Origin: a virus
Strand: one strand, 5' to 3'
IMG/VR virus record: IMGVR_UViG_3300044713_000194
Coordinates: 43,637-107,636 of that record
DNA length: 64,000 nt
Each line of letters begins with the position of its first letter. Positions within the stretch are counted from its first letter, which is position 1. The position numbers and the translations under genes are program-made. Below the pieces are notes generated by a model. That model was not told the DNA's origin. It saw nothing but the letters and a program-made list of their open reading frames with translations, and ran no database searches. Positions 24,112-53,600 of the stretch are shown piece after piece.

Positions 24112-24142
24112 TCGCAACTTTCACGCGTAGATTACGTCCAAG
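24112..24142 (+). promoter_or_regulatory. tRNA-operon promoter 1 (ECF-sigma-like GCAAC-N16-CGTC)
   Basis: TCGCAACTTT-N9-ATTACGTCCAAG; both boxes identical in the three copies, each upstream of a leader ORF. Confidence 0.85.
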
Positions 24143-24147
24143 GAGAT

Positions 24148-24252
24148 GTGAAACATTTATTGTCGAGTTCGCTATCCCTCTCATCGCTGTGCTATTTGCT
24201 CAGCGGTACGGGTTCGCGTGCTGGAAAGCGGGACGGTTACGATTACTACTAA
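24148..24252 (+). CDS. Attenuator leader peptide 1, MKHLLSSSLSLSSLCYLLSGTGSRAGKRDGYDYY
   Basis: AAGGAG RBS and GTG start; contains TTA, TTG, CTA, CTC, CTG, TCG, TCC, TCA, AGT/AGC, TGC and TAT/TAC, matching all 11 downstream tRNAs. Confidence 0.85.
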   Translation: MKHLLSSSLSLSSLCYLLSGTGSRAGKRDGYDYY

Positions 24253-24277
24253 CCACCGCTGACAAGCAGGAAACGCG

Positions 24278-24308
24278 AACCCCACCAGAAATGGTGGGGT
24301 TTTGCTTT
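24278..24308 (+). terminator. Attenuator terminator 1
   Basis: AACCCCACCA-GAAA-TGGTGGGGTT then TTGCTTT. The 5' arm region ACGCGAACCC (24273-24282) is complementary to leader GGGTTCGCGT (24210-24219). Confidence 0.88.
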
Positions 24309-24310
24309 GT

Positions 24311-25707: not shown

Positions 25708-25802
25708 GGTGGGGTGGCAGAGCCCGCTTTATTGCACCGGTCTCGAAAATCGGCGTGGCCGTGATCCGGCTACCGTGGGTTGAAATCCCACCCCCACCGC
25801 CA
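25708..25802 (+). tRNA. tRNA-Ser(CGA)
   Basis: CCGGT-CTCGAAA-ATCGG arm, long variable arm, CCA. Confidence 0.88.
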
Positions 25803-25853
25803 GCTTGGTGCACGAATCGTAGCTCAGCTACGACGTATAGAATCGTTTCAAAC

Positions 25854-25941
25854 GGAGGGCTGCCGGAGTGGTTTATCGGGCCGGTCTTGAAAACCGTTGA
25901 GCCTTCGGGCTCCGTGGGTTCGAATCCCACGCCCTCCTCCA
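25854..25941 (+). tRNA. tRNA-Ser(TGA)
   Basis: Loop CT-TGA-AA, long variable arm, CCA. Confidence 0.92.
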
Positions 25942-30284: not shown

Positions 30285-31080
30285 TTCAACGGCGCATCGC
30301 CGCCCTAACCACCGGCGACATCTACGCGCGAGAGTCAGATCGCTATCACCATCGACCTGCGCCCGGGCTCCGGAACGGGTACGTCTGATTCAGGCCGGGC
30401 TCTTTGCCAATTAGAAGACCTCACCGCCGCGTGCAATCTACCTGCTGTGGGCAAGCCGCATCTGCGGTAATTGAGGGAGGGATTCGAACCCTCATTCCCC
30501 GGCATCTCAATGTTTGCCCCCTGCGGCCACCCCTCGCGCAGGGTTACAGCCGTATTTGGTCAGGAGGTCTTTAGCGCGGATCATGGGGCGCTTCAACGGA
30601 CGAAGTCCTCGACCATCCCTCACGGCTCGACCGGGTATCTAATCCGGCCTACCCCTTTACGTTGCGCCTTACCGCCGTGGCCGCATCGCGCTGCTCCACG
30701 GTTCTCTTATGGGGCCGGTAGCCCGTTTCCGCTCTAATGCACCTGCGTGCGGCTGGGAGTCGAACCCAGCCAAGCTGCCGTTGCCCAGCCTGGTTGATGA
30801 CGATGCGCGGGTCGGGTCGGATTCGAACCGACGATCGGCGGTGGTGCCCACCGCTGCTTTAGTCCGCCTAAGCTACCGACCGCGCATCTTTCCGCCCGGT
30901 CCCATCGACCACGCGACTACCGTCTCTTGGCGTTTCGGACCCCACCCCCGGGGTCCAGACGGTGCCTGCTCGCTCGGAACCTTACCGGGCGGAAACCTAA
31001 ATGGGGTCTTTTATCCCTTACGGGTGTCGCTCAGAGCGCCTGCCGAAGCATAAAACTCCGCCACAACATTTTCCCCATAC
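30285..31080 (-). ncRNA. Candidate large (~800 nt) structured ncRNA, GOLLD-like in size and context, with an embedded tRNA-like element
   Basis: No credible CDS; many long stems (e.g. TTCCGCCCGGT/ACCGGGCGGAA, 30890-30994) and several T-loop-like hairpins; begins directly after tRNA-Val. Confidence 0.55.
30804..30886 (-). pseudogene. tRNA-like element with non-canonical anticodon loop and no CCA
   Basis: D-like arm and T arm GTCGG-TTCGAAT-CCGAC; anticodon arm GCGGTG-GGCAC-CACCGC. Confidence 0.6.
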
Positions 31081-36885: not shown

Positions 36886-37057
36886 GTATGCCCGGCCATC
36901 GTGTAGGCCGGGTTCAACTTCACTTTCAATTGTCAAAGACCTTCACCTGGGCCTGAGCCCCGATCTTGGTGGGGGTGGGTGGGCGGAAGCAATCGAGCAG
37001 CCGATCCCACGTCCCTTTGAACGTTTTAGCTGCTCTTTCCTCCGATCCGCATCCCCA

Positions 37058-37088
37058 CAAAGCAAAACCCCCGGCCTTAGCCGGGGGT
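37058..37088 (-). terminator. Attenuator terminator 2
   Basis: ACCCCCGGC-TAAG-GCCGGGGGT then TTTGCTTT. The 5' arm region CACGACCCCC is complementary (with a bulge) to the leader end GGGGGTTCCGTG. Confidence 0.88.
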
Positions 37089-37114
37089 CGTGAACCTACG
37101 AGTAAACCACTCGG

Positions 37115-37216
37115 TTACACGGAACCCCCCAGCACGCGATCCCATCCTTCGCGCACTACGCTCTCCATCCGCTTAACGCGGATGTTGACAGTCGTTTTTA
37201 TGGTCCTGGAGTTCAT
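37115..37216 (-). CDS. Attenuator leader peptide 2, MNSRTIKTTVNIRVKRMESVVREGWDRVLGGSV
   Basis: GAAGGA RBS; contains AGG, ATA, AAA, ATC, CGC, AAG, CGG, ATG, GTA, GAA, GGA, TGG and GAT, matching all 13 downstream tRNAs. Confidence 0.85.
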   Translation of the reverse strand: MNSRTIKTTVNIRVKRMESVVREGWDRVLGGSV

Positions 37217-37237
37217 GTAAAGAGTATCCTTCCCTTG

Positions 37238-37268
37238 CTTGGACGTAATCCCTAGCCAAAAGTTGCGA
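37238..37268 (-). promoter_or_regulatory. tRNA-operon promoter 2 (GCAAC-N16-CGTC)
   Basis: TCGCAACTTTTGGCTAGGGATTACGTCCAAG. Confidence 0.85.
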
Positions 37269-37297: not shown

Positions 37298-37513
37298 ATG
37301 TCAATCAACACACTCGTATCCGAAATCGATCATGAAATTGCCGGACTCACTCAAGCCCGGAAGATCCTAACCTCTTTAAACGGGCATTCGACACGACCCG
37401 CCGCCGGAACGCATAAACGCAGGCCTCTCTCGGTCGCGGCCCGGAAGCGGATCGCTGCGGCCCAAAAGAAACGATGGGCGGAGCAGAGGAAAGCCGCGAA
37501 GAAAACTGCGTAG
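37298..37513 (+). CDS. Small basic coiled-coil/histone-like protein
   Basis: GGAGG RBS; EIDHEIAGLTQAR...LSVAARKRIAAAQKKRWA. Confidence 0.75.
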   Translation: MSINTLVSEIDHEIAGLTQARKILTSLNGHSTRPAAGTHKRRPLSVAARKRIAAAQKKRWAEQRKAAKKTA

Positions 37514-37802: not shown

Positions 37803-37879
37803 TGGTCGGGACGGTCAGATTCGAACTGGCGACCTTACGCACCCCAAGCGTACGCTCTACCAGGCTGAGCCACGCCCCG
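37803..37879 (-). tRNA. tRNA-Pro(GGG)
   Basis: TACGC-TTGGGGT-GCGTA arm, C1-G72, CCA. Confidence 0.93.
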
Positions 37880-38165
37880 ACATCACTTAAACATCCCGAT
37901 TATCTTGACACAATCGGGAGTTAAACTAAGCAGCGCCTGCTGCAAATTTAGCTCTGTACGAAGTTTCTCTTCGGTCCAGTCACTATTCTCGATCTTTAGC
38001 CGCGCCAGGGCATTGAGATAGGGATACGTTCCGAAGCACATTAACAACTGGGTTGTAGGCCAGTCAGATGCCTCAATAACCATTCGCGCGTAATTTTGGA
38101 ATCCAGTCTCAAACTCTTGTCGCAGACGACTTTTCGTTTCACTATCCATCAACTCTCCTTAGAGT

Positions 38166-38243
38166 TGGCCCGAGGAGCGGGAGTCGAACCTGCCCACCGG
38201 ATGACTGCGCAGACCCCGGCGCTACCCACATGCCAGTCCTCGG
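38166..38243 (-). ncRNA. CCA-terminated tRNA-like RNA with degenerate anticodon arm
   Basis: Acceptor CCGAGGA/TCCTCGG-GCCA and T loop TTCGACT intact; centre weakly paired. Confidence 0.55.
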
Positions 38244-38503
38244 TTAAAGCTTCGCTGTTGGCGGAAGCGGGTGATTCCAGTTTTTCTTCATCCACCAGTT
38301 GAGGCTGCCGACAATTACGAATACACCGGCTGCCGCACCGACACAACACATCGCGCGAAAAGCGTCATCGGGGTCGGTAAAGGCCGAATAAACCATGCCA
38401 CCGAGCGCAAATAACAGACCCGCAACGCAAAGCGTGATCGCAATTGCCTTTGCGACTTTCCCGACTGCACCCAGAAACCGCGCCGTCCTATATTGCCATG
38501 TCA

Positions 38504-39241
38504 TCACCAAGCTCCCTCAATTTCTTCCGGCCCCGACAGGATGTGCTCGGGCCGGACGGTTGTCAGATTGGGAAATCTTTTTGCAACTTCCTCAACAAAC
38601 CAGCGGATCATCTGACGCCCCTTGCTCGGTGTACATGCGTCAATTATCGCAAACAGCAGAAACAGGTCAAGATCCTCAACGCTCATCAAGGCATGAAGGA
38701 GCTTCTTCTCATCCATACAGGGCTCCTCCGCTCGCGGAGAACCCTCCAGCGCCTTACAGCGCTGACAGACGCGCCGTAAGAAGCCCGGCGACGATGTGTT
38801 TCGTTCCCATCCTACGAAGTAGGACGCAGCCTTGGGTTCCCACGCGTGACGCGTTTCCTTCATCTTTTTGAACACTGCATAACCGATGTCGTGCCACTGC
38901 GTAATGTTCAGCATACTGCCGTCATCGGTGAACCGCGCCAGATATTCGCGTGCAATCGACGCATGACTCTTGGGATCGAGGATGGCGCTGTCGCGCTTGG
39001 CCTCCATCTTGAACGAGTCGTGCACGTGAATCAGAACTTTCAGCTTCCAGTACCGCTCGCTGTCGGCCTCAACGAGCCCTTGGGATACCAACCTCGCGAG
39101 GTTGGCTTCGAGATCGGCAATGTGCGCCTTCACCGTTCCTTCGGCGTGCCCCCGGCGTGGTTTGCCATACTCGATGTTGGCCTGGTAGCGCGGGTCCGCG
39201 ATGATCTGTTCGTAGACCGCTTTGAAGTTCGTCACACCCAT
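38504..39241 (-). CDS. HD-domain protein with apparent Cys/His insertion
   Basis: H...H...VHDSFK...H...WHD...IID motifs. Confidence 0.7.
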   Translation of the reverse strand: MGVTNFKAVYEQIIADPRYQANIEYGKPRRGHAEGTVKAHIADLEANLARLVSQGLVEADSERYWKLKVLIHVHDSFKMEAKRDSAILDPKSHASIAREYLARFTDDGSMLNITQWHDIGYAVFKKMKETRHAWEPKAASYFVGWERNTSSPGFLRRVCQRCKALEGSPRAEEPCMDEKKLLHALMSVEDLDLFLLFAIIDACTPSKGRQMIRWFVEEVAKRFPNLTTVRPEHILSGPEEIEGAW

Positions 39242-39720
39242 ACCTCGATCGGTCTCCGACCATCGGCTTCGCACGAGACGAGTTTCACCCGCGTGCGGGG
39301 AATCGAGTCATCCTTGAGGATCACTGCTTGCCAGATTTGGCCTACCACTGCGTTGTCGTACTGCACCGGGACCTCCCCATTCATTGAAGAGAGGAACATA
39401 GACACATCGTCGGGATGGAGCCTGACTTCGACAACACGGAGCCGTGGGTCTTTCTCAACCTCTGAAAAACCGTTAGCCAACTTGTCGAGCGAGAAGAAGT
39501 TCAGTTGTTCTGTCATAGCTTTAACCATCGTCCACTACAAGAAATCACAAGAGTCGGGCACGTTTGCTTCGCAGGCTGGTAATGCTTGCGAAGCGGCTTC
39601 CCGCAGGTCTCACAAATCACTTCCCCGCTTGCTCGGAACGCCTCTTTCCACTCCTCCGGAGGGATGTCGTCTTTCTCCCAAGACCAGGCCATCAGTCAGT
39701 TTCCTTATGCGGTACTCCCC

Positions 39721-40926
39721 TCAGTCTTTATAGGGGTCCCGCTCTGTCGAAGACGCCATTGCCACGCCAACCGGCGTCAGCCGGTGCAGAATCTTGACCG
39801 AGTCCTCGACTGAAGCCAGGACCTCGTCAAGGCGCTTGTAGCAATCCGGCGACTCATCGAGGCCGCCGCCGCGAAGCTCGATACCCGCGCGATCGATCCA
39901 GGCACGCATCATCTCCTGGGTAACTTTGCCTTCACGGACGACGCGGACTTCACCCGTCTCCTTGTTCTTCTTGGTAACACCGGTCGCTTCCTTGCGCCCC
40001 ATCGCGCGGCCTGCACCGTGCACGGTCGAGTAGAGAGAGTACTTTGCGTTCTCGTTCTCGACACCCTCAAGGATCACCGACTGCTCACCCATCGAGCCGC
40101 CGACAAAGCCCTTCCGGCCTGGGTAGGCCGGTGTTGCCCCCTTACGGACAACCCAATACCACTCACCGCCATGGAATTCACGCCATGCATAATTGTGGTG
40201 GTTGTGGACTTCCTCAATAACGGGAGCGCCGAGAATCTTTGCAACGCGATCACATACCCAGTCGCGGCCCGAATAAGCGTAGGCACCGGCCAAATGCATC
40301 GCCAGGAGGTACTGGTCACCGAGATCGCTCTTCACGTCAAGCACGCATGGCTCAACCTCCATGCCGTCCTTCGCTCCGGCAGCCTTGAGGAACCAGGTTG
40401 CGATGCCGTGGCCAAGACCGCGCGAACCGAAGTGCACGCCAATCCAGACGCGATCCTGCTCGTCGGTGAACAGGTCCACGTAGTGGTTGCCGGAGCCCAC
40501 CGTACCAAGCTGAACGACAGCCTTCTGATGCAGAGGCTTGCAGGCCGCCAGCTTCCACGCATCGGCATGGGCGAAGTCTTCCCACAAGACGGAGCTATCG
40601 ACCTTCTCGTTGTTCTTGCGGCCTACGCCGAAGCTGATCGTCTTCCACACGTCGTCCATGATCGTCTTGATGTTGGCGCGAAGCTCCGTGCCGGTCATGT
40701 CTACGCGGACTGCCTTGTTGCCGCAGCCGATGTCGTAGCCCACGCCGGTCGGGCTGATGGCATCCTTGTACGCCACCACTCCGCCGATCGGCACACCGTA
40801 GCCCAGATGGTTGTCTGGCATCAGCGCCACCTTGTCGGCGGTCTTCGCGCACGTGCGTATCTGGTTGAGCGTCTTCTCGTCGGCTTCGCCGAATACCGGG
40901 ATCTTTCCGTCAATGAGTTGCATCAT
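39721..40926 (-). CDS. rtcB: RtcB RNA ligase (2',3'-cyclic phosphate/5'-OH)
   Basis: MPDNHLGYGVPIGG, GYDIGCG, GSGNHY, HFGSRG, NHHN, RKGAT, HGAGR, DESPDCYK. Confidence 0.95.
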   Translation of the reverse strand: MMQLIDGKIPVFGEADEKTLNQIRTCAKTADKVALMPDNHLGYGVPIGGVVAYKDAISPTGVGYDIGCGNKAVRVDMTGTELRANIKTIMDDVWKTISFGVGRKNNEKVDSSVLWEDFAHADAWKLAACKPLHQKAVVQLGTVGSGNHYVDLFTDEQDRVWIGVHFGSRGLGHGIATWFLKAAGAKDGMEVEPCVLDVKSDLGDQYLLAMHLAGAYAYSGRDWVCDRVAKILGAPVIEEVHNHHNYAWREFHGGEWYWVVRKGATPAYPGRKGFVGGSMGEQSVILEGVENENAKYSLYSTVHGAGRAMGRKEATGVTKKNKETGEVRVVREGKVTQEMMRAWIDRAGIELRGGGLDESPDCYKRLDEVLASVEDSVKILHRLTPVGVAMASSTERDPYKD

Positions 40927-42519
40927 TTCTTTTCTCCCGCGACCTCGTCTTTTGACCAGTACCACTTTCCCTTATTCTGCACTACGCCCTTGAATCCACG
41001 CGGTGGGCAAAACTCGCGGCCTTCTATGTCGAGGAATGCCCGCTTGCGAGCCCGTATAGCGTAGATACCGTCCCTCATGCATGGTTGGGGCACAATTGGC
41101 AGTAGAACTGCGATCGCCATCAACGTTCACACCTGGGCTGTCCAGTAGTTCTCGCGTCGAATGCAATCGAGGCAAGCTCCGCAGCCGCTGCAATGGCTTA
41201 CCGCCGGTACCCGCATTGCCGCGAGGACGCGTGCCGCCAAAGTATCGTCGAACTTTTCGGATCGTCCATCGAAGAAGCCTCTCATAGGCTCCTGCCGTGG
41301 CCGATAGCAATGCTTTCGAATCTCGTCTGCGGTCTTGATGTCTTGTGCGATCGGCTTCACGTCACAATGAATGCAGAGGCGGTTGACGATGTTTACCGAG
41401 CCGCAACGATCACAGAAGGCGTGACCGTCCGCGCGGTAGTTGATGCCGTCGCGCATGGAGTACTCCATGGGCTCCGCCGCACATTCGTCTCCCGTGGTAT
41501 TTGGCATGTTCCGAAAACCTCCCTAGTGGCTAATACTGAGGCGGAAGGACGGAATTCACATACCCATTAACATTATTCCAAATATTCTTGGTGACCGCCC
41601 TGCGCCGCCCGTTTATGTGCTTCGCGGCGTTTCCGCTTGTGTCCAAAGTACTTATCGGCGTGACAAAGCTTTGAGCCGCAGCCAAGGTTCCACTTGGAGT
41701 ATCGACCCCAGGCGGAAGGCTCCGTGGGATGGACACGGTTGATGAGGTTGGTGCGTTCCTGAACGCGGTGACTGTCGGTCCAGACGTGGTCATGGATAAA
41801 GCGCCGCTTCGCGATGACGCGGTCGCGCTGGTGCCGACGTTCGGCACGATTGGTTGGATGACTCATGGCTGATGCCGCCCCCTTCGTGCGGTGTGTTACA
41901 TCGAAGCCATGAATTCCTCCTCGGACACTTCCACAAGAATCGCCCCCGTTTCGTCTTCAATTATCCACTTGCGATCGAGCCCAAGCTCAATCAGTTCGCG
42001 TACCCCGATTTCAGGAGGCACATCGGCCAGGTTCCTCAGCCGGATTTCACTCAGCCTAATTTGGAGAGACCGAAGACTGAACATCGTTCCATTGAGTTCC
42101 CGCAGCGCGGCTTTGAAATCGAAGATACCGTTCATAAGTCTGTGCCCTTGTGTGTTTCCAGTTGGTGTGGATCAGAAGGCGCAAGAAATTCAGTACCGGG
42201 CTGTTTTCGATGAACTCCACTGGGAGGCCGTCACGACCGATCGGAGTCTTGCCGAATATCTTCACCCTCGCCCCCTTTCTCTACTGGCGCATGATCCGAT
42301 TCCGGCAACATACACTTAGGAATCTCCGTGCGTATTCCGCCGATATATGCGCACACCTCGATACAATCGTCCCAGCTATGCCCGTCCTTGCGCATATTGC
42401 GCACCAGGCGCTCCAGCCCGCGCCGAAAGTTCCGGATTTCCCGCCTACGCTGGAGCCACTTTTTCAGCCAGATCATATTCGCCTTTCGTCAAACTTCCCG
42501 GCGTCTTGCCACTGAGACC

Positions 42520-42715
42520 ACGCGAATGCCTCGACATTCGCGGCGGGATTCGAACCCGCGTTTCCGGGCTTGATGGCGCTCTACCAGCCTGAGCCACTCG
42601 CCGCTTGGCACTACCGGTCAAGCCGGGATCTCCATAAGGCGAGGCGGGATTCGAACCCGCGACCTCCATCCTACTTTTGTCTAACCGGCGTCCTGGGCTT
42701 GAACGATTGGGGGGA
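42520..42715 (-). pseudogene. Two tRNA remnants
   Basis: Two GCGGG-TTCGAAT-CCCGC T arms with D-like arms but no valid anticodon arm or CCA. Confidence 0.55.
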
Positions 42716-42768
42716 AGGCGTTCACCCGCAAGTCCAGTGGCTCACATAAAGCGATTGGGTAGTTCTTT

Positions 42769-42847
42769 TGGAGGGAGGGGAGGGACTCGAACCCTCAAAA
42801 ATCGTGAGCCACAGTCACGCGCGTCTACCAATTCCGCCACCGACCCC
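42769..42847 (-). tRNA. tRNA-His(GTG)
   Basis: CGTGA-CTGTGGC-TCACG arm, G-1, CCA; two acceptor-stem mismatches. Confidence 0.85.
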
Positions 42848-43308
42848 CGGCTTTATGCTTGAACCTTTACCGTCCCATCTTGCAAAAGTGCCTCGACCTC
42901 GGGATCGACCTCCGCTGGAACCGTTGTGGCCCCACTGTCCCTTAGACGCGGCCAGCGAAGCTTACCAATGAAATCGCCATGCCTTCGATACACGCAAATA
43001 TCGAGGACTCCAGACCGTTCATCCTCGTTTGGACAAAGCTCCAGGTCTGGGTGCTTCTCAATTGCGATTACAGCAGAGATGAAATCCATCGTTCTACTCC
43101 CTTCAAAAACTCAATCAAAATCCTCGTCTTCAGCACCACACATCAGCGGCAGCAAGGTGACCAGGCAGCACAAGCAAAACAGGTTTGGATCATCGAGCGA
43201 AGCCGCAATGCCTATGCCATACACAGACAGCACCGAGATCAGAAATGCTACGACTTCGTATGGCATGCAACACCTCTGATGCCCGGTGCCCCACCGCTTA
43301 CTTCAAAT

Positions 43309-43385
43309 TGGTTGCGGGACCGGACCCCGACTCCGGCGATTTCCTGGTTATGAGCCAGGCGAGACTCCCTTTCTCCATCCCCGCG
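43309..43385 (-). tRNA. tRNA-fMet(CAT), divergent
   Basis: CGCGGG...CCCGCA-ACCA (C1:A72); CAT loop; degenerate T loop. Confidence 0.8.
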
Positions 43386-43423
43386 ACTTGTTGAGCGCGT
43401 ATATTCGGCGCTCGAATATTTTG

Positions 43424-43507
43424 TGGAGCCGGGCAAGGGATTCGAACCCCCGATGTTTGTGTAGCGGTTTACAATACCGCCGCTTTCGACCACTCAGCCA
43501 ACCCGGC
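43424..43507 (-). tRNA. tRNA-Thr(TGT), enlarged variable loop
   Basis: GCGGT-ATTGTAA-ACCGC arm (A32); 84 nt; CCA. Confidence 0.85.
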
Positions 43508-43996
43508 CCTACTCACTAATGTTCTGTCCCGCCGACTCTGGATCGGCTAAATTCCGTTCCTGTGGAACCGATACAGTTCGCCGCGAAGCTCCCTCGTCAG
43601 TTCCACAGGTCCGAACGGAGCGGCGGTCTCAGGTCGTTCGCGCAACCCTCGATTGAGCCTTACCGCACGCTTGTTGAAGCTCGCGTCCCCTTGCTGAACA
43701 TCAGCCAGCAATACTTCGCACGCCAGCATTGACGGCAGACCTTGATGTGGTGCTCGTACCGTGCCCTGTCGTCGAGTACGAGCAACGTTCAATCCTTCCC
43801 GTAAACGCTGACCGTGGCAGACTTCCGGCTTTTGCCGATTTTTACCCTGACGCCCGCACCGGTGGTTTCGGATTCGAGTGCCGCCTCGCGAATTTGTGAG
43901 GCGAACTCCGGAGCGTTCTCAAGCTCCTGCACCGCGCTGCGAGGCAGCGTCACGTAGATCGTTTTTGCCATGACATCCTCCTGCGTGACTTTCAGA

Positions 43997-44073
43997 TGGA
44001 GCCCGAGACCAGGTTTGAACTGGTGACCTCTCCCTTACCAAAGGAGTACTCTGCCAACTGAGCTACTGCGGGC
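43997..44073 (-). tRNA. tRNA-Thr(GGT)
   Basis: Loop TT-GGT-AA, CCA; one-base bulge in the acceptor stem. Confidence 0.88.
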
Positions 44074-44317
44074 TTTGAATTTCTCAAAGCGTCCAGCAGG
44101 GCTGTGAGTTCAATCACCAGCCTACCTGGAATTGATAAACCTAACTCGTTGCAATAAATGTCGTCCAAATGGGTCTTAACTTCTTCACGAGCCTCATAAA
44201 GACCCAACACCCAGTCCGGTACCTTAACAAGCTTCCCGGTCCCCGTCTCCCAGAATGTACGCGTCTCGCCCATTTTCAACCCACTAGGACCGACCTCTGC
44301 CAACTGAGCTACTGCGG
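44049..44317. repeat. 23-bp direct repeat CTCTGCCAACTGAGCTACTGCGG (44049-44071 and 44295-44317), the 5' part of tRNA-Thr(GGT)
   Basis: Exact duplication flanking a ~220-bp insert that carries a small ORF. Confidence 0.85.
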
Positions 44318-44368
44318 CGAAATCGTGTCGCTAAGGGGTAATACTCCCAAAACCCCTCGGCAACCATT

Positions 44369-44881
44369 TCAGTAATAGAGAAACTGCCTCCACGCCGGAT
44401 CGCGGTGACCGATCTTCCGCATCAGATGGCGGCTCGTGTGGATTGTCGCCGGTCTAGGACGGTTCAAAAGGACCATTCCCGCCTCTTCCGGCGTCCGGTC
44501 GGCCTTCTTCCCGTTACACGACTTGCATGCCGTCACCAGGTTCTCCCAGGTGTCCGGGCCGCCCTGCGCCCGAGGCGTGACATGGTCCAATGTCAAGTCG
44601 CGCACATGGAAGTGTTCTCCGCAATACTGACACTGGTAGTCATCCCGAAGGAAGATGTTCCGAGCCGAAGGCCGCGTCCTGATGTGCGGGACCTTGCGGA
44701 ACTCAATCAGCCGGACAACGCTGGGCAGCTTGATGCCCCTGTGAATTTCCTGATCGTGCTCTACCTCGGCCAATGCAACGGCCTTGCAAATCAACTTAAT
44801 CGCGTCGCGGGCCGCCGCGAAACGCAGGGGTTCGTACGAAGCGTTCAACACCAGCACCGGTCTGTCCATCACTGCGCCCAT
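44369..44881 (-). CDS. HNH endonuclease (McrA-like)
   Basis: VLVLNASYEP...RDDYQCQYCG...TLDHV...WENLVTACKSCNGKK. Confidence 0.9.
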   Translation of the reverse strand: MGAVMDRPVLVLNASYEPLRFAAARDAIKLICKAVALAEVEHDQEIHRGIKLPSVVRLIEFRKVPHIRTRPSARNIFLRDDYQCQYCGEHFHVRDLTLDHVTPRAQGGPDTWENLVTACKSCNGKKADRTPEEAGMVLLNRPRPATIHTSRHLMRKIGHRDPAWRQFLYY

Positions 44882-44905
44882 ACAATTACCCCCGAAACCT
44901 TGTTG

Positions 44906-44982
44906 TGGAGCCGGTGAGGGCAATCGAAACCCTGACCTGCGGTTTACGAAACCGCCGCTCTGGCCACCTGAGCTACACCGGC
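44906..44982 (-). tRNA. tRNA-Thr(CGT)
   Basis: GCGGT-TTCGTAA-ACCGC arm, CCA. Confidence 0.92.
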
Positions 44983-45187
44983 CCGACTCAAACTCTGAAC
45001 TTCCATCCGCACACAATCGAGGCAAGTCCTAGCCTTTGAGATCCCGTGCAGGAAAATTTCTCTATACGTACCACCCTGAGAAAGACGTTCGTAGACGCTC
45101 AACACATCTCCGTCCAGGTTGATCTGTGTCATACAACACTCCCTTGATAGGAATACCGTTTCGCTATAGCGATTCGGAATATTAAAG

Positions 45188-45262
45188 TGGAGCGGGTGGC
45201 CGGGATCGAACCGGCGGCATCCTGCTTGGCAAGCAGGTGTTCTACCGCTGAACTACATCCGC
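45188..45262 (-). tRNA. tRNA-Gly(GCC)
   Basis: CCTGC-TTGCCAA-GCAGG arm, U73-CCA. Confidence 0.93.
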
Positions 45263-45400
45263 GTCGGCCCGCGCCTGGACGCCGTTGCTCGGGCCTCGAT
45301 ACTCACGACAATTGCGCTCGTCGGCGACGTTTGTGGCCCGGGGCCGCTGGCACGGTCGATCGACCTAAAAATAGACAATGATTGTTCTCGCAATGAGAAC

Positions 45401-45475
45401 TGGCTGGCGGAGGAGGAATCGAACCCCTCATTCAACGGGCCAAAACCGTTTGTCCGACCGTTAGACGATCCGCCA
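45401..45475 (-). tRNA. tRNA-Gln(TTG)
   Basis: AACGG-TTTTGGC-CCGTT arm, G73-CCA. Confidence 0.9.
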
Positions 45476-46190
45476 AAATTCTCTTTATAACGATCCCTAC
45501 TCTTGTTCCACTAACTCCTAACTGTTCAGCGACCCGACTTTTTGTGCTACACTGGACCATCCTTAATAACTCATCATCAGTTGGCCACACAATTTTTTGC
45601 TTATACTGTGCATTGCTCGACCTCGAACACTTTTGACATAACCGGCTCTTGTGTGCAGTCAAACGTTTCTCACATTTTTGGCATTTCGGTAGAGTTGAAT
45701 TACGTGTGTTCTTTCCGCAAAATGTCTCTAACTGGCTATCGCAATTAGGGCATACGAGCCTAAGATTAGGTAGTCTAGCATCGTCGTAGATTCCGTTTTC
45801 ATGATCCAATCGGAGGACGAGTGGCTTACCATTCCACTTAGGTCCTAGATCGCAAATCGAACAGCGGTTTTTAAGGATACCTTCCTTAATCAACCTTCTC
45901 TTCAGAGAGCGCCGACTGTACTTCGAATGCTCAACCAATATCTGATCCAACGGAACCATGGGGGCTGCCCATGAGCGCCCGGCGTGCCACCCGGGCTGAA
46001 GCGTCTCAAAATGATCAAGGTTAAGTCCGGACTCTTCTACGCGTCTCCTAAAGGTTCGAAAATTTCCGCCCTTATTATGCAGTCCCCAGTACGCCAACGC
46101 CTCCCGAATGCTGTTACTTCTGCGCACGATCTGCGCAAACTCATCGTCCGATACTTGCCAAATGACACTTGTTCGCCTTCCCATATTCAC
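45432..46190 (-). CDS. HNH homing endonuclease overlapping tRNA-Gln(TTG)
   Basis: CSIC...LRLDHENG...NLRLVCPNCDSQ; lower GC; 3' end reads into the tRNA. Confidence 0.88.
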   Translation of the reverse strand: MNMGRRTSVIWQVSDDEFAQIVRRSNSIREALAYWGLHNKGGNFRTFRRRVEESGLNLDHFETLQPGWHAGRSWAAPMVPLDQILVEHSKYSRRSLKRRLIKEGILKNRCSICDLGPKWNGKPLVLRLDHENGIYDDARLPNLRLVCPNCDSQLETFCGKNTRNSTLPKCQKCEKRLTAHKSRLCQKCSRSSNAQYKQKIVWPTDDELLRMVQCSTKSRVAEQLGVSGTRVGIVIKRILADRLTVGQTVLAR

Positions 46191-46488
46191 CCCTTCTAAG
46201 GGGTTAATACCTACCGAGACCCATCAAACCGGAATATGTACCAGTGTGAATATCGTCCTGCCGTTGAACGAACCGCCATCAAAAAATTACCTTACTAGCA
46301 CTTTCTCAAATTTCATCGGGGACCCGTCGTGGTCGGAAATCGTTCGCCCCGCAAGCACACCCACGCCAGCGCCTCAATCTTTCACGGCGGGGCCGAGCTT
46401 ACAAAGCACTACCACTGCCCTCGTCTTGGTCTTAGAACCCATGCCTCCAAGCTGACGTTGCATTATTCGTCCGCGTCGCTGTCGAAAC

Positions 46489-46575
46489 TGGAGCGGGTTC
46501 CGGCTTGAAACCATCTCACGGCCCACCCCCACCCGTACGGTGCCGAAAGCAGCCGTTCCTCATCCGAGGCCCGCT
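46489..46575 (-). ncRNA. CCA-terminated small structured RNA
   Basis: AGCGGG...CCCGCT-CCA terminal pairing, internal hairpins, TTCAA loop. Confidence 0.4.
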
Positions 46576-46586
46576 GTAAACCTTGT

Positions 46587-46660
46587 TGGCAGCCCGTCAG
46601 GGATTCGAACCCCAATATGCGCATCCAGAGTGCACTGTCCTACCGTTGAACGAACGGGCT
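46587..46660 (-). tRNA. tRNA-Gln(CTG)
   Basis: Loop CT-CTG-GA, G73-CCA. Confidence 0.9.
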
Positions 46661-46719
46661 GTGAAACCTCGGGTTTTCAAACATCTCACTTCCGTGGCCC
46701 TCAGGCCTTCTGGAATTTA

Positions 46720-46796
46720 TGGTCGGGGCACAGGGAATCGAACCCTATCCACATGCGCCCAAGGCATGGATGCTTGTACCATCACACCCTACCCCG
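46720..46796 (-). tRNA. tRNA-Pro(TGG)
   Basis: CATGC-CTTGGGC-GCATG arm, C1-G72, CCA. Confidence 0.88.
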
Positions 46797-46808
46797 ACAT
46801 CGTATTGT

Positions 46809-46882
46809 TGGTCTCCGAGCGGGGATTCGAACCCCGGACACCGCGCCCCGAACGCGGGATGTTTCCACTACACTACTCAGAG
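46809..46882 (-). tRNA. tRNA-Pro(CGG)
   Basis: CCGCG-TTCGGGG-CGCGG arm, C1-G72, CCA. Confidence 0.9.
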
Positions 46883-46931
46883 ACGACAGCTAACTTTGCG
46901 CCCGATTTGTGCCTCGGGTCCGGGCGGCTTA

Positions 46932-47007
46932 TGGTGGTCACCTTCGGTGTCGAACCGAACTCTACGGCTTTTCAGGCCATCGCTTTCTCCGGATTAGCTT
47001 GGTGACC
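46932..47007 (-). tRNA. tRNA-Phe(GAA)
   Basis: Loop CT-GAA-AA, CCA. Confidence 0.9.
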
Positions 47008-47130
47008 CCTCAATTTCTCCGATCGGCTTACGTCGCTTCCAACAGCCTCCGATCGCGGCCTTTACCGGAGCCATGTCCCTGTCCCGCTGTTTTACGACGG
47101 ACAGGGTGGTACATCGGTCAAGGAACTTTG

Positions 47131-47206
47131 TGGTGGACATGGGGAGGGTCGAACTCCCATCGCCGGGTTGCAGGCCCAGCCGGTTCCCATTACCAAACAC
47201 ACGCCC
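47131..47206 (-). tRNA. tRNA-Ala(TGC), divergent
   Basis: G3:U70 pair, A73-CCA, loop CC-TGC-AA (C33); weak D arm. Confidence 0.82.
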
Positions 47207-47216
47207 ACTGCTAAAT

Positions 47217-47293
<77 letters not shown>

Positions 47294-47350
47294 ACAATGC
47301 AACTAACGTCGTTCCTGCTTCGTTCCCTCCCGGGGAGTGTTTACTCCGCA

Positions 47351-47380
47351 AATGAAAACCCCAGGCGCTTTGCCTGGGGT
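47351..47380 (-). terminator. Attenuator terminator 3
   Basis: ACCCCAGGC-AAAGC-GCCTGGGGT then TTTCATT. The 5' arm region GAGACCCC is complementary to the leader end GGGGTCTC. Confidence 0.88.
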
Positions 47381-47405
47381 CTCGAAACCTGCGATCGCTG
47401 ATCGC

Positions 47406-47504
47406 TTAGTCGATGAGACCCCCGTTCAGATGCGCGGGCGTACCGGCCTGCGGCTGATTGCCGTTGGCTGGTACGGTAAACCGGGTTGTTGCTTGCTGCA
47501 TCAT
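47406..47504 (-). CDS. Attenuator leader peptide 3, MMQQATTRFTVPANGNQPQAGTPAHLNGGLID
   Basis: GGAAGAGG RBS; contains ATG, CAG, CAA, GCA, ACA, ACC, ACG, TTT, CCA, CCG, CCC, AAC, GGC and CAT, matching all 14 downstream tRNAs. Confidence 0.85.
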   Translation of the reverse strand: MMQQATTRFTVPANGNQPQAGTPAHLNGGLID

Positions 47505-47526
47505 CGACACAAAACCTCTTCCTATG

Positions 47527-47557
47527 CTTGGACGTAATGTTTTTGCAAAAGTTGCGA
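47527..47557 (-). promoter_or_regulatory. tRNA-operon promoter 3 (GCAAC-N16-CGTC)
   Basis: TCGCAACTTTTGCAAAAACATTACGTCCAAG. Confidence 0.85.
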
Positions 47558-50691: not shown

Positions 50692-53600
50692 TTAGACGTT
50701 CCGAACCCAATTTTCTTCAGGGGTCAGTTCGTCTTCCGTGGCGGCGGGCACCATTATGTCAACCGGTGAGCCCGCGTACGCGCCATCCCGCTGATCCGGA
50801 AACAGAGCCCAGCCGTTGGACTGCTCACGGTAATCGGCATCCGGCTTGAGCGCTGGGTTTTTGCTGAGGCCAGCAGTCTTAAGGTTTCTAAGCATCCGCA
50901 ACACTGCGACGCGGGCGCGGGCCATTTCCTGGGTCCGATACGGCGGCTCACTGTTTGCCAATCCAGCGTTCAGCAAAACCGTATCGAGAGGGCACTCGAA
51001 AATACCTTCGGCACCGACGATTCCATCTAAGAACTCGGCTTCCGTCAGCCGTCCACGAGCATCGTAGTAAGCCTCTCCGACTTTGAGACCGACATGGCCC
51101 GGATACGCCGATTGATTTGTGGATACAAATACACCTTCCCGGAATTTCTCCTTCAAAGCCAAAGCGAAATCAAAGCAGCCACCCGCCAACCATGGACGCA
51201 TCCACGCCTCATATTTTGCGGTCTTGACCAACTCATCGTCAATTCCTCGCGCCTTTGCCTCATCGCTCAAATCCATCACCGTGAAATGAACCCCGTCTAC
51301 ACTAAAGAGATGGCGACGCCCAAAGTTTACCCAGTTCTGAAGATTATTCAGGTCGGCGTACTGCTGACCCCACACATAATCGGCCCCAAGATCCAGAGGA
51401 ATCGCACGAAGACGACGGCCAAGACCTGAACCACGGTATTCAGGAATTACAAACAGGGCAACGCCTTCAACACCCCGAAGATCTCGATATGGGGCTGTGG
51501 CTGGAACCTCTGGGTTGTAAATCGACCGATGTGTGAGAATATAGCCGCCAACCACCTTCCCTTGATCTTTTGCGACGTAGGAGTGCGAAAAATCACCTCC
51601 GGTTGCGTCTATGATGATCGACCGAAAAAGGTTCGCGTACTGTGGGAAGCTCTGCTCACCAGCGACTAGTAAGGCGGGGATGTCAGATTTTGAAACTACC
51701 GAAATGGCAGGGGCGCTCGCTTGCTTGGCTCCGTTGACATCCTCAGTGACGGTAAGCCGCCGGATCAATTCATAGGAATTTGTGAACAAAGCCACCAACC
51801 CGGAGTGATAATCACCGGGATTGTTCTTGATGTCCGCTTCCAAGTCCTCAAAAGTCACCCAGGCGATGTGGTCCGTCTCCCAACCAAAGCCGGGCTCGGG
51901 ATGGAGTTCAAATTCCTCTGCGACCTCGCCGAGAAAATTGTAATACTTGAATGATCCGGAGGAGAAGACAAAAGCCGGATGCAGCGTGATCGATCCGTGG
52001 TAGCCGGTCTCCTCCTGAAGCTCGGACATGGCACTCTCTGAGGGGTTCTTGTCCTTCTGAATCGCGCCCCCCAGGGTACCGAAGCAGTCGCCCTGGTTCA
52101 CTTCGCTACTGCGCCAGGCGAGGCAGATGCGCCTTGTGCTCTTGCAGATAGGCAGGATTCCGGACGCACCCCCACCTTCGCCGACCCAGAAGCCGTTATC
52201 GTCGTAGTGGTCTGCAACCTTAATCGCCGGTGTCTCACGGGATGCCACGATTGTGATGTCGGCGACTGAGAACATGCCGGTGCCTGGCTCGACCTGGCGA
52301 GCCTTGTCGTCCCAGTGCTCCACCATGCCCGGGTCCTTCTCATTCGTCGCGTCGAGGCGCGTGCCAACGAACTCCTCGGTCCAATCGCCGATGGCGGCGC
52401 GAATCTTCTCGGCATTTTCCTTATCGGCCATACGGGCGGTGAACACCTTGATTGTTTCACCGTTCTTGAGGGCTGTGCGAACCTTCTCCACCATTTCCAT
52501 GATGGGCTCACCGATCTTGGTTGGATCGGAGTAGTCATCCAGTGCGACCGCGATCGTATCGTCGAGGTCCACTCCGATCCAGGGCTTATACTGCGGCTCC
52601 TCGACAGATGCGGTGATCTTGTTCGAGTTTGAATCAAATTGGCCACTGTTTCCAATCGCGGACTTGATCTGATTCGGACGGAACACAATCCAGCTATCGT
52701 TCCCCGGGTCCTCGACGACGTTCTCGTACACAATGCCGTCGTAGCCCATTGATTCGAGAAGCTTCAGGGCGTCTTCGTTGTCGCGACACTCTTCGAACTG
52801 ATCGATGTCAATGATTTCCCGTTCGAGCAGGGTAGTAGCGATCGCCTCCGTACTTTCCCAACCGCGTGGGTACTGTTCATCCTCATCAATGTTTGTGTCA
52901 TCCTCATCGCGCTCACGAATTGGTTCGCCGGTGTTGATGTCAAGTGACGCCAGATCGGGCAGCCGCAGGGGGTGTACAACACTGAGATACACCGGCATGA
53001 TGTTTGAGCCCGACGCACGGGCAGGGTTCTTGATCTCGTCGTTGTAGAAGTTCCACAGGTCACGGTGACGGTCGTTGGCCGCCTGCTGTGTCCCGAAGTG
53101 CGTAAATGGCCGGAACTCTTCGATGTCCCCAGTCTGAGTAGCGTGGTACATCACCATTGGACGGCCCTGACCATCGACAACCTTCGAGCCTGAAAACCAG
53201 GCCTTGAATTGCGGGGTTTCGGTAATGTCCTGAACAGGGACCTCGGCCTCGGCCACCGCTGCTTGACGCTTCTTTGTCTTCGGAAACACGATGTCTTTCG
53301 GTGCCACGTACGGCAGTACAAACTGCACCGCACCGCTCGCAATGTCAGCATCGTCCGGGTCCGGCAACAACTCGCGAAGGGTTGTATGGATCTCCAGGGT
53401 GACTGGGGAGCCTTTGCGGCGTTGCGTGGAGTTCCGTCTGTACCCCTCGACTGCCGGGCCGGAAACTTCCGTTGTTACGTACACACCCGCACCCGAGTTC
53501 TGGTACAAGTTTGACTTCCGCACGTCCCCTCTCAAGCCTTCACGCTTGATCTGCGGCACCAGGCCGCTCGACGTGTGATGGAAGACTGTCACCGGAAGAT

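What the first reader, a model, noticed from the sequence alone, without database searches (positions are those of the whole stretch)
47351..47504. Leader 3: samples Gln/Ala/Thr/Phe/Pro/Asn/Gly(GGC)/His codons of block 3 at isoacceptor resolution
It contains CAG and CAA; ACA, ACC and ACG; CCA, CCG and CCC; plus GCA, TTT, AAC/AAT, GGC and CAT, matching every tRNA from Asn (47293) to Pro-GGG (37803). Glycine is split correctly: GGC here with Gly(GCC) in block 3, and GGA in leader 2 with Gly(TCC) in block 2. GGGGTCTC, three codons before the stop, is complementary to GAGACCCC in the terminator arm, so a ribosome reaching the stop would mask it. tRNA-fMet is also in this block, and failed initiation should likewise leave the antiterminator free.
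Basis: partly seen in the sequence, partly recalled or inferred. Interest (0 to 1): 0.88.

Follow-up and report, generated by a model that had tools for sequence, protein, structure and literature searches.

The report
Leader-peptide attenuator gating phage tRNA block
Ahead of one of its three blocks of tRNA genes, this soil giant phage carries a tiny translated test gene written in the amino acids those tRNAs carry and wired to a switchable transcription stop, so it probably makes these tRNAs only when ribosomes run short of them; I found no paper describing such control of tRNA genes.

Summary
On the minus strand, 47557-47350 holds a promoter-like motif, a Shine-Dalgarno site, a 32-codon ORF (47504-47406), an 8-bp antiterminator pairing and an intrinsic terminator, 58 nt before tRNA-Asn. 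By amino acid, 24 of 31 residues belong to block 3 (background 0.43, P about 9e-5). All 13 credible block-3 tRNAs have a cognate codon. The same cassette heads the other two blocks, and each leader matches only its own block.

Tunturiibacter phage Tunturi_5, a closer fragment (L229) and four more giant-phage records repeat the layout. Across 17 leader-block pairs, no shuffle of 20,000 matched the observed fit. In all 17 leaders folded, the terminator's 5' arm pairs with the 3' end of the ORF or the bases just after its stop, and the hairpin encloses the stop codon.

Best reading (0.7): a trp-type ribosome-mediated attenuator that reads decoding speed and gates tRNA genes and, if the unit extends that far, RtcB.

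Three details fail:
- Isoacceptor resolution is not beyond chance.
- No fMet tRNA lies in block 3.
- Arg(GCG) is unmatched and doubtful.

There is no RNA or bench evidence. This scan has already noted the same class on other phage DNA; no publication was found.

The parts
47527..47557 (-). Promoter-like motif TCGCAACTTT-N9-ATTACGTCCAAG. The AAC-N16-CGTC spacing resembles ECF-sigma promoters.
   Evidence: It occurs exactly three times in the 107.6-kb record, only ahead of the three leaders, against 0 expected. L229 carries a variant. The ECF likeness is my inference from the known consensus.
47515..47523 (-). Shine-Dalgarno-like AGGAAGAGG, 10 nt before the ATG at 47504 and 4 nt before the GTG at 47510.
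   Evidence: Read from the sequence. Leader 2 has the same 10-nt spacing.
47406..47504 (-). Leader ORF 3: 32 sense codons plus TAA, with an alternative GTG start at 47510.
   Evidence: It is the only open frame on this strand here. Codon and amino-acid match to block 3.
47415..47422 (-). 5' strand of the antiterminator (GGGGTCTC), inside the last codons of the ORF.
   Evidence: It pairs with 47383-47376 at -18.0 kcal/mol, P = 0.008 against shuffles. The pairing forms in the minimum-energy fold of the transcript cut before the terminator's 3' arm.
47384..47414 (-). Inner part of the antiterminator hairpin. It holds the last two sense codons, the stop codon and two inner stems (47411-47408 with 47389-47386; 47405-47400 with 47396-47391).
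   Evidence: Truncated-transcript fold.
47350..47383 (-). Intrinsic terminator. The 8-bp GC stem (47379-47372 / 47366-47359) extends to 12 bp with GAGA:UUUU. The loop is 5 nt and the T-tract is 47358-47350. Its 5' arm overlaps the antiterminator's 3' strand (47383-47376).
   Evidence: Folds give -21.5 kcal/mol. One compensatory pair distinguishes it from the Tunturi_5 homologue.
42769..47293 (-). Block 3, proximal part: tRNAs Asn, Ala, Phe, Pro x2, Gln x2, Gly(GCC), Thr x3 and His, interspersed with co-oriented ORFs (HNH endonuclease at 44369-45025).
   Evidence: ARAGORN and Rfam; Pfam.
37803..42768 (-). Block 3, distal part: a tRNA-like remnant (42535-42668), RtcB ligase (39721-40965), the doubtful Arg(GCG) call (38166-38243) and tRNA-Pro(GGG) (37803-37879). 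Membership of the same transcription unit is inferred, not shown.
24112..24310 (+). Sister cassette, leader 1 (ORF 24148-24252). Its terminator T-tract ends at the 5' end of tRNA-Leu (24311).
   Evidence: There is no room for a separate promoter, so block 1 needs read-through.
37058..37268 (-). Sister cassette, leader 2 (ORF 37216-37115), ahead of block 2.

Best explanation
Leader 3 is a ribosome-mediated (leader-peptide) transcription attenuator that gates tRNA block 3.

Proposed sequence of events:
1. Transcription starts at the shared promoter-like motif.
2. A ribosome loads on the 32-codon ORF, which is written mostly in Gln, Ala, Thr, Phe, Pro, Asn, Gly and His codons.
3. If these are decoded fast, the ribosome reaches the last codons and the stop. 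There it occupies GGGGTCTC and the inner stems of the antiterminator. The terminator hairpin then forms and transcription ends about 58 nt before tRNA-Asn.
4. If the ribosome stalls further upstream for lack of a usable tRNA, GGGGTCTC pairs with GAGACCCC as the RNA emerges. The terminator's 5' arm is sequestered, and RNA polymerase reads into the tRNA genes and probably on into the co-oriented HNH, RtcB and distal tRNA genes.

The result is negative feedback on tRNA supply. Together with leaders 1 and 2, the three blocks cover all 20 amino acids.

Shown: the sequence elements, the own-block enrichment, the predicted alternative structures and their recurrence in relatives.

Inferred: translation of the ORF, the response of termination to stalling, the direction of the logic, and the extent of the transcription unit.
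For: 1. Anatomy at the stated coordinates: motif, SD, ORF, terminator.
2. Own-block specificity. The share of leader codons read by blocks 1/2/3 is .61/.24/.18 for L1.12/.59/.28 for L2 and .09/.21/.64 for L3. Own-block tRNAs with a cognate codon number 11/11, 13/14 and 13/14. By amino acid, each of the six leaders of this phage and Tunturi_5 is enriched only for its own block, with P from 1e-7 to 5e-3.
3. Independent replication. Tunturi_5 has the same three blocks and three leaders with diverged peptides. L229, G006, G008, G009 and G010 sort their tRNAs into different blocks, and the leaders follow suit. Across 17 pairs the mean excess of own-set residues is 0.30, against 0.017 +/- 0.047 when leaders and blocks are permuted; 0 of 20,000 permutations reach it.
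4. The switch. In transcripts cut before the terminator's 3' arm, that arm's 5' partner pairs with the 3' end of the ORF (or, in G010, just after the stop), and the hairpin encloses the stop codon. This holds for the six leaders of this phage and Tunturi_5, for L229, for nine leaders of unrelated phages, and by manual pairing for G010. Duplex P values for the first six are .004 to .18. A masked ribosome at the stop abolishes the L3 antiterminator; stalls with the A site 18 nt or more upstream of GGGGTCTC keep it.
5. Covariation. In the L1 antiterminator, GGGUUCGCG:CGCGAACCC is replaced in L229 by GGGGUCCUG:CAGGACCCC. The L3 and Tunturi_5 terminator stems differ by one compensatory G:C to C:G change.
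6. The distance from the stop codon to the terminator stem is 25-31 nt in the six leaders of this phage and Tunturi_5.
7. In block 1 of this phage, Tunturi_5 and L229, the terminator T-tract abuts the first tRNA, so those tRNAs can only be made by read-through.
8. No Rfam cis-regulatory family matches.
Against: - There is no RNA-seq, Term-seq, ribosome-profiling or reporter evidence.
- Isoacceptor-level matching is not beyond chance.
- By strict wobble, 12 of the 33 codons counted from the GTG are not read by block 3 (TCG, ATG x2, CGG, GTA, GCC x2, and five of the last six codons).
- The His codon and the last Asn codon lie so close to GGGGTCTC that a ribosome stalled there would mask the antiterminator. 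Not every listed codon can signal in the proposed direction.
- The antiterminator is thermodynamically weaker than the terminator, so the model needs kinetic, co-transcriptional folding and transcription-translation coupling. Neither is known for Acidobacteriota.
- A 58-nt spacer follows the terminator, and block 3 spans 9.5 kb with protein genes, so internal promoters cannot be excluded.
- For block 2, a conserved GTCTTTGACAA lies between the terminator and tRNA-Trp.
- In the L1-type leaders the antiterminator's 5' strand lies 27-51 nt before the stop. Simple masking by a terminating ribosome does not explain those.
Confidence: 0.7

Rival explanations
1. The leader is translated and does sense decoding of the block's codons, but the output is not classical termination control in the stated direction. 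Ribosome position might instead control processing or stability of the precursor (RNase access), or efficient translation might promote read-through (reversed logic).
For: - The codon match shows a link between the ORF and the block, not the direction of the response.
- L1-type leaders place the antiterminator strand 27-51 nt before the stop, where a terminating ribosome would not cover it.
- The G010 block-3-type leader has a poor T-tract after its hairpin.
Against: - A strong hairpin plus T-tract sits at a fixed 25-31 nt after the stop in the six leaders of this phage and Tunturi_5.
- A mutually exclusive pairing that encloses the stop codon recurs in every leader examined.
- For L2- and L3-type leaders the geometry fits the trp-type logic directly.
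Confidence: 0.12
2. The terminator is a constitutive, leaky stop or insulator behind a dedicated (ECF-like) promoter. Regulation is by the sigma factor or a DNA-binding protein only, and the short ORF is incidental or untranslated.
For: - The promoter-like motif is unique to the three cassettes.
- Tunturi_5 encodes a sigma-70-family protein.
- The only published stress-induced tRNA array, the Anabaena trn operon, is controlled by a protein repressor (PMC10272220).
Against: - This does not explain why each ORF is enriched only for its own block's amino acids in 17 pairs from 7 phage records.
- It does not explain why the ORF's 3' end is complementary to the terminator arm, with covarying sequences.
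- Tunturi_5's three leaders share no long promoter motif and yet keep the ORF-terminator design.
Confidence: 0.08
3. The three short ORFs encode functional micro-proteins. Their composition reflects peptide function, and the terminators simply end these small genes.
For: - Block-3-type peptides keep some sequence similarity across three phages: a conserved Arg-Phe pair near the N-terminus and a Gly run near the end.
- One Tunturi_5 leader is annotated as a CDS (ORF308).
Against: - The residue sets are not physico-chemical classes. Leu, Ser, Tyr and Cys are the class II tRNAs plus Cys.
- The sets change between phages exactly as the tRNA blocks are re-sorted, for example Val/Gly/Ala/Asp/Glu/Cys or Gln/His/Arg/Asn/Lys blocks with matching leaders.
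- In block 1 the terminator abuts the first tRNA, so it cannot be a simple gene end.
Confidence: 0.04
4. Chance: an accidental ORF and accidental complementarity in a GC-rich intergenic region upstream of an ordinary terminator.
For: - Taken alone, L3 is only moderately improbable (P about 1e-3 to 1e-4).
- G-runs facing C-rich terminator arms are easy to find in GC-rich DNA.
Against: - There are three cassettes with a shared 31-nt motif in one record.
- All six leaders of this phage and Tunturi_5 are enriched only for their own block.
- The 17-pair permutation test gives 0 of 20,000.
- The structural design recurs in unrelated phages.
Confidence: 0.02

Closest known systems
Leader-peptide transcription attenuators of enterobacterial amino-acid operons (trpL, hisL, pheL, leuL; multivalent thrL and the ilvGMEDA leader)
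   Same: A short translated ORF enriched in the codons whose decoding is the signal. An antiterminator overlaps the 5' arm of an intrinsic terminator. A ribosome that reaches the stop prevents the antiterminator. Multivalent leaders sense several amino acids at once.
   Different: - The genes controlled are tRNA genes (and probably RtcB), not biosynthetic enzymes.
- Eight amino acids and 13 tRNAs are sampled, without runs of a single codon.
- The element is phage-borne and comes as a set of three that partitions all 20 amino acids.
- The signal could be tRNA abundance or integrity rather than amino-acid supply.
- There is no sequence homology and no Rfam hit.
pheM leader of the E. coli pheST operon (leader-peptide attenuation of a tRNA synthetase; from my own knowledge, not looked up here)
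   Same: Ribosome-mediated attenuation applied to a component of the translation apparatus.
   Different: It senses a single amino acid (Phe), is cellular, and controls a protein gene.
T-box riboswitches
   Same: They sense tRNA status and switch between antiterminator and terminator upstream of translation-related genes.
   Different: A T-box binds uncharged tRNA directly through a specifier codon and the conserved T-box sequence, and has no ORF. Here there is an ORF with an SD site and no T-box match in Rfam.
Anabaena PCC 7120 trn operon (long tRNA array, silent until translation is impaired; repressor TrcR; rtcB often nearby), PMC8421152 and PMC10272220
   Same: An accessory tRNA array that is switched on under translational stress, with RtcB associated.
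   Different: Control there is by a ribbon-helix-helix DNA-binding repressor, with no leader peptide or attenuator described. The small ORF beside leader 2 here has no RHH or other Pfam match.
Leader-peptide attenuators ahead of phage tRNA blocks noted earlier by this scan on other genomes (unpublished AI notes, e.g. e1-5618024, e1-5928568, e1-5746329)
   Same: The same architecture and the same reading; this window is a further instance.
   Different: A different phage lineage (Tunturi_5-like, probably with an Acidobacteriota host), a shared ECF-like promoter motif, and RtcB inside the gated block. Those notes are not independent evidence.

Membership tests
Ribosome-mediated (leader-peptide) transcription attenuator | A short ORF with a start codon and ribosome-binding site directly upstream of the regulated genes, on the same strand | tested here: met
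   ORF 47504-47406 with AGGAAGAGG 10 nt upstream; it is the only open frame on this strand.
Ribosome-mediated (leader-peptide) transcription attenuator | The ORF is enriched in the codons whose decoding is the regulatory signal | tested here: met
   24 of 31 residues against a background of 0.43, P = 8.7e-5, and no enrichment for blocks 1 or 2. Codon-level P is 0.0006-0.0017. Isoacceptor-level choice is not significant.
Ribosome-mediated (leader-peptide) transcription attenuator | An intrinsic terminator between the leader ORF and the regulated genes | tested here: met
   Hairpin of -21.5 kcal/mol plus T-tract at 47383-47350, 58 nt before tRNA-Asn.
Ribosome-mediated (leader-peptide) transcription attenuator | An alternative antiterminator pairing that is mutually exclusive with the terminator | tested here: met
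   47422-47415 pairs with 47383-47376, P = 0.008. It forms in the truncated-transcript fold. Analogous pairings occur in all other leaders examined. This is prediction only.
Ribosome-mediated (leader-peptide) transcription attenuator | Ribosome position (stalled upstream versus at the stop) selects between the two structures | tested here: inconclusive
   In silico masking supports it for L3. Masking is not an experiment, and the His and last Asn codons are too close to signal in the proposed direction.
Ribosome-mediated (leader-peptide) transcription attenuator | Read-through shown to respond to translation of the leader | not testable with these tools
T-box riboswitch | Stem I with a specifier loop and the conserved T-box sequence, with no leader ORF | tested here: not met
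   No T-box or other cis-regulatory Rfam match at gathering or at E <= 1. An ORF with an SD site is present.
Rho-independent (intrinsic) terminator | A GC-rich stem-loop directly followed by a U-tract | tested here: met
   An 8-bp GC-rich stem, 5-nt loop and TTTTCATTT. The simple scanner did not list it; I suspect it extends the stem into the T-tract.
TrcR-type repressor control of a tRNA array (Anabaena trn operon) | A ribbon-helix-helix repressor gene and its operator at the array | tested here: not met
   The small divergent ORF 37298-37513 and the neighbours of leader 3 have no RHH or other Pfam match. Only 35% of the genome is on hand.

The most novel reading that the evidence does not exclude
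The three attenuators form a phage-encoded sensor of the host tRNA pool that covers all 20 amino acids in three channels. It keeps about 38 replacement tRNAs and the RtcB repair ligase silent while host tRNAs work. It switches on the matching block when ribosomes stall, for instance after host tRNA-cleaving immunity or host shut-off. That would be an inducible counter-defence. The same design has arisen or spread across unrelated giant-phage lineages.
Probability: 0.35. Interest if true: 0.93.

Novelty: new variant of a known kind. Interest (0 to 1): 0.84.

Why it matters
Phage tRNA genes have been explained by codon compensation and, more recently, as replacements for host tRNAs destroyed by anticodon nucleases or retron effectors (PMC10264068, PMC11555353). 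How their expression is controlled is essentially unknown.

A leader-peptide attenuator would make tRNA transcription a direct function of how well ribosomes decode the very codons those tRNAs read. That extends the classical trp/his logic from amino-acid supply to tRNA supply. It gives a testable mechanism for on-demand deployment of tRNAs and of the RtcB tRNA ligase that lies inside the block.

It also offers a simple annotation rule: short ORF, terminator 25-35 nt after the stop, then a tRNA array. The rule finds such leaders in several unrelated giant-phage contigs.

Tunturi_5 is a cultured phage with a cultured soil host (PMC11924767), so the idea can be tested at the bench.

Tried and rejected
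Searches for closer relatives that failed or gave little:
- The 212-aa neighbour has no relative in viral contigs and only itself among 5.8 billion proteins.
- The exact promoter motif gave nothing in viral contigs or metagenome contigs.
- The junction of the L1 terminator and tRNA-Leu gave nothing.
- A degenerate motif found only L229's contig plus non-phage contigs without tRNAs.
- RtcB-anchored loci and their records mostly lack tRNA arrays, so RtcB does not track the lineage.
- ParB-like-anchored relatives L153, L155, L158 and L162 have small Ile/Thr/Gln blocks that directly follow a protein gene, with no leader or terminator. The design is therefore not universal.

Tools that were not available:
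- The leader peptide is too short for the search for homologous proteins.

Ideas rejected:
- T-box or any other Rfam cis-regulatory family.
- An fMet tRNA in block 3.
- Isoacceptor-resolved codon choice.
- An RHH or other recognisable regulator next to the cassettes.
- A shared long promoter motif among the Tunturi_5 leaders.
- A sigma-70-type promoter between the L3 terminator and tRNA-Asn.

Structure, complex and atlas tools were not used because no protein question arose.

Full report
**What the window is.** The window is the last 64 kb of a 107.6-kb IMG/VR virus record that CheckV estimates to be 35% complete, which implies a giant phage of about 300 kb. Its nearest named relative is Tunturiibacter phage Tunturi_5, a 308.7-kb phage of an Acidobacteriota host. 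The two share proteins at 30-75% identity: RtcB at 73%, a 133-aa protein annotated as nudix hydrolase at 73-74%, an exonuclease at 68% and a helicase at 66%. ARAGORN finds 39 tRNAs, all inside three blocks, and none elsewhere in the record:
- Block 1 (+, 24311-25941): Leu x5, Tyr, Cys, Ser x4.
- Block 2 (-, 36885 down to 29180): Trp, Asp, two CAT-anticodon tRNAs, Lys x2, Glu, Arg x3, Val, Cys, Ile, Gly(TCC).
- Block 3 (-, 47293 down to 37803): Asn, Ala, Phe, Pro x2, Gln x2, Gly(GCC), Thr x3, His, a doubtful Arg(GCG), Pro(GGG).

Together the blocks cover all 20 amino acids.

**The observation.** Reading the minus strand from 47557 to 47350 gives, in order:
- a 31-nt motif, TCGCAACTTT-N9-ATTACGTCCAAG (47557-47527);
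- a purine-rich Shine-Dalgarno site (47523-47515);
- an ORF from the ATG at 47504 (or the GTG at 47510) to the TAA at 47408-47406;
- GGGGTCTC at 47422-47415;
- a small perfect palindrome just after the stop;
- GAGACCCC at 47383-47376, running into an 8-bp GC stem (47379-47372 / 47366-47359) followed by TTTTCATTT.

tRNA-Asn starts 58 nt later. The whole stretch folds far better than shuffles (z = -4.3).

**Is it more than chance?**
- By standard wobble, 21 of the 33 codons after the GTG are read by block-3 tRNAs, and 13 of the 14 ARAGORN tRNAs of the block have a cognate codon. Blocks 1 and 2 read only 3 and 7 of these codons.
- Both measures together have P about 0.0006 in random draws from phage codon usage and 0.0017 in 33-codon windows of long ORFs. 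Only one of the 897 short ORFs of the record reaches them, and that list includes the leader itself.
- By amino acid, 24 of 31 residues belong to the block-3 set against a background of 0.43 (P = 8.7e-5), with no enrichment for the other two sets.
- The unmatched tRNA, Arg(GCG) at 38166-38243, is not seen by Rfam even at E <= 1, so 13 of 13 credible tRNAs are covered.

**The three leaders are one design.** The 31-nt motif occurs exactly three times in the whole record, each time ahead of a short ORF plus terminator that precedes a tRNA block. Leader 1 (24148-24252) has 16 consecutive Leu/Ser/Cys/Tyr codons and covers 11 of 11 block-1 tRNAs. Leader 2 (37216-37115) covers 13 of 14 block-2 tRNAs. 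The matrix of leaders against blocks is strongly diagonal. In block 1 the terminator's T-tract ends at the first base of tRNA-Leu. There is no room for another promoter, so that block can only be expressed by reading through the terminator. This is the clearest sign that termination must be conditional.

**Relatives.** Tunturi_5 has the same three blocks in partly different internal order. Each is again preceded by a short ORF and a terminator, and one of these ORFs is annotated as ORF308. The peptides have diverged but keep own-block enrichment (P = 4e-5, 2e-4 and 2e-4).

A closer fragment, L229, has a connector protein 77% identical to this phage's. It has the block-1 cassette with a variant of the motif and a Leu/Ser/Cys/Tyr-rich ORF.

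More distant giant-phage records reached through shared proteins (G006, G008, G009, G010) sort their tRNAs into different blocks, and the leaders follow:
- a Val/Gly/Ala/Asp/Glu/Cys block has a leader rich in exactly those residues;
- a Gln/His/Arg/Asn/Lys block has a leader with a Lys/His/Gln/Arg/Asn run;
- G010 has a block-3-type leader ahead of Asn, Gln, Thr, His, Phe and Arg.

Over 17 leader-block pairs from 7 records, the mean excess of own-set residues is 0.30. It is 0.017 +/- 0.047 when leaders and blocks are permuted, and 0 of 20,000 permutations reach the observed value. A generic scan also finds the layout in unrelated contigs (L097, L098, L102/L105, L138, L144, L147), where several leaders rank in the top 1% of short ORFs of their locus.

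**The switch.** I folded each transcript cut just before the terminator's 3' arm, the state in which the choice is made. The terminator's 5' arm then pairs with the 3' end of the ORF in a hairpin that encloses the stop codon. This holds in all six leaders of the two phages, in L229 and in nine leaders of unrelated phages.

For leader 3, this hairpin is GGGGUCUC:GAGACCCC stacked on two inner stems, with UAA in an internal loop. The outer pairing scores -18.0 kcal/mol against -10.7 +/- 2.5 for shuffles (P = 0.008). The six P values range from 0.004 to 0.18.

Masking 30 nt for a ribosome at the stop removes the antiterminator and leaves the terminator. Masks centred on codons further upstream keep it. 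A mask with the A site near the His codon removes it.

The distance from stop to terminator stem is 25-31 nt in the six leaders of this phage and Tunturi_5.

The sequences covary. The leader-1 antiterminator GGGUUCGCG:CGCGAACCC is GGGGUCCUG:CAGGACCCC in L229, at -25.1 against -12.1 +/- 2.5 kcal/mol. The leader-3 and Tunturi_5 terminator stems differ by one compensatory pair.

**Mechanism proposed.** This is trp-type attenuation. Fast decoding carries the ribosome into the antiterminator and transcription terminates. A stall upstream lets the antiterminator form and the polymerase reads into the tRNAs. The sign of the loop is homeostatic.

Shown: the elements, the statistics and the predicted structures. 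Inferred: that the ORF is translated, that termination responds to stalling, and that the unit extends through the co-oriented HNH, RtcB and distal tRNA genes. One search finds no strong same-strand terminator inside the block, but the block is 9.5 kb long.

**What does not hold.**
- Isoacceptor resolution is not shown. With the peptide fixed and synonymous codons redrawn, all 13 tRNAs are covered 37% of the time.
- No CAT-anticodon tRNA lies in block 3. Both are in block 2 and neither looks like a bacterial initiator.
- The glycine split is only a tendency.
- The two GCC codons are not read by Ala(TGC) under strict wobble. Tunturi_5, however, has Ala(GGC) and Ala(CGC) just after His. This window has a tRNA-like remnant at the syntenic place, 42535-42668. 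The leader may therefore preserve an older block content.

**Promoter.** The motif has AAC-N16-CGTC, the spacing of ECF-sigma promoters; this is my inference from the known consensus. Matches to a degenerate form of the motif in metagenome contigs lie on non-phage contigs without tRNAs. Tunturi_5 encodes a sigma-70-family protein, and none is found in the part of this genome on hand. The three Tunturi_5 leaders share no long motif. G010's block-3-type leader sits behind a TTGACA-N17-TACATT promoter with almost no 5' UTR. The attenuator design is thus independent of promoter type.

**Comparison with what is known.** The element works like the multivalent leader-peptide attenuators of amino-acid operons, but it gates tRNA genes. 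It is not a T-box. The Anabaena trn array is induced by translational stress through a protein repressor, not a leader. The Tunturi paper lists the tRNAs without comment on their control. Seven full-text searches found no description of leader-peptide attenuation of tRNA genes. Earlier notes of this scan report the same class on other phage genomes. They are leads, not evidence, and I re-tested the claim here on this DNA and on its relatives.

**Verdict.** This is a real feature with strong comparative and statistical support. The mechanism is plausible but untested: a new variant of a known kind of regulation.

Noticed in passing
window 42535-42668 (-): A tRNA-like remnant lies just downstream of tRNA-His. 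It gives a partial YrlA (Y RNA-like) match of 40.9 bits (E = 2e-6, below the gathering score of 69), two short matches resembling the tmRNA 3' end, and a 96-nt 'Ala(GGC)' call at a lowered ARAGORN threshold. It is syntenic with Tunturi_5's tRNA-Ala(GGC) after His, and would read the two GCC codons of leader 3.
   Followed up: partly
window 24112-24142 (+), 37268-37238 (-), 47557-47527 (-): A 31-nt promoter-like motif with ECF-like AAC-N16-CGTC spacing is unique to the three tRNA cassettes in the 107.6-kb record. L229 has a variant. Degenerate-pattern hits in metagenomes are on non-phage contigs. Tunturi_5 encodes a sigma-70-family protein (W01 152341-152520).
   Followed up: partly
window 36931-36941 (-) and L002 about 8920-8935 (-): GTCTTTGACAA is conserved in both phages between the leader-2 terminator and tRNA-Trp. 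It could be the -35 element of an internal promoter or a processing site, which would weaken exclusive control of block 2 by leader 2.
   Followed up: no
window 39721-40965 (-): An RtcB-type tRNA ligase (73% identical to Tunturi_5 gp296) lies inside block 3, co-oriented with the tRNAs. If the unit is continuous, the repair ligase would be induced together with the tRNAs.
   Followed up: partly
window 44369-45025 (-) and 45432-46190 (-): An HNH endonuclease (PF01844, E = 6e-18) and a 252-aa ORF with a weak HTH match lie between tRNA genes. These are probably homing-type insertions that stretch the block.
   Followed up: partly
window 38166-38243 (-) and 30807-30882 (-): ARAGORN calls tRNA-Arg(GCG) and a second tRNA-Cys(GCA) here, but Rfam does not find them. 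These are the two tRNAs that have no cognate codon in their leaders, so they are probably degenerate or false calls.
   Followed up: partly
window 37298-37513 (+): A 71-aa, very basic ORF with a good SD site lies divergent from the leader-2 promoter. It has no Pfam match. It could be a DNA- or RNA-binding regulator of the cassette.
   Followed up: partly
L256 around 11043 (-), record G010: The block-3-type leader of a distant relative sits behind TTGACA-N17-TACATT with only 6 nt before the ATG, so its mRNA is nearly leaderless. Its antiterminator strand GGGGTCTC lies just after the stop, and its terminator has a weak T-tract.
   Followed up: partly
L153, L155, L158, L162 (ParB-like-anchored relatives): Small Ile/Thr/Gln tRNA blocks directly follow a conserved protein gene of about 130 aa, with no leader ORF or terminator. 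Not all tRNA blocks in this wider group are gated.
   Followed up: partly
window 13718-22993 (-) and 50692-56046 (-): Two giant ORFs (3091 and 1784 aa) are partly similar to Tunturi_5 gp273, which is annotated as a MutT/NUDIX hydrolase. They were not examined.
   Followed up: no
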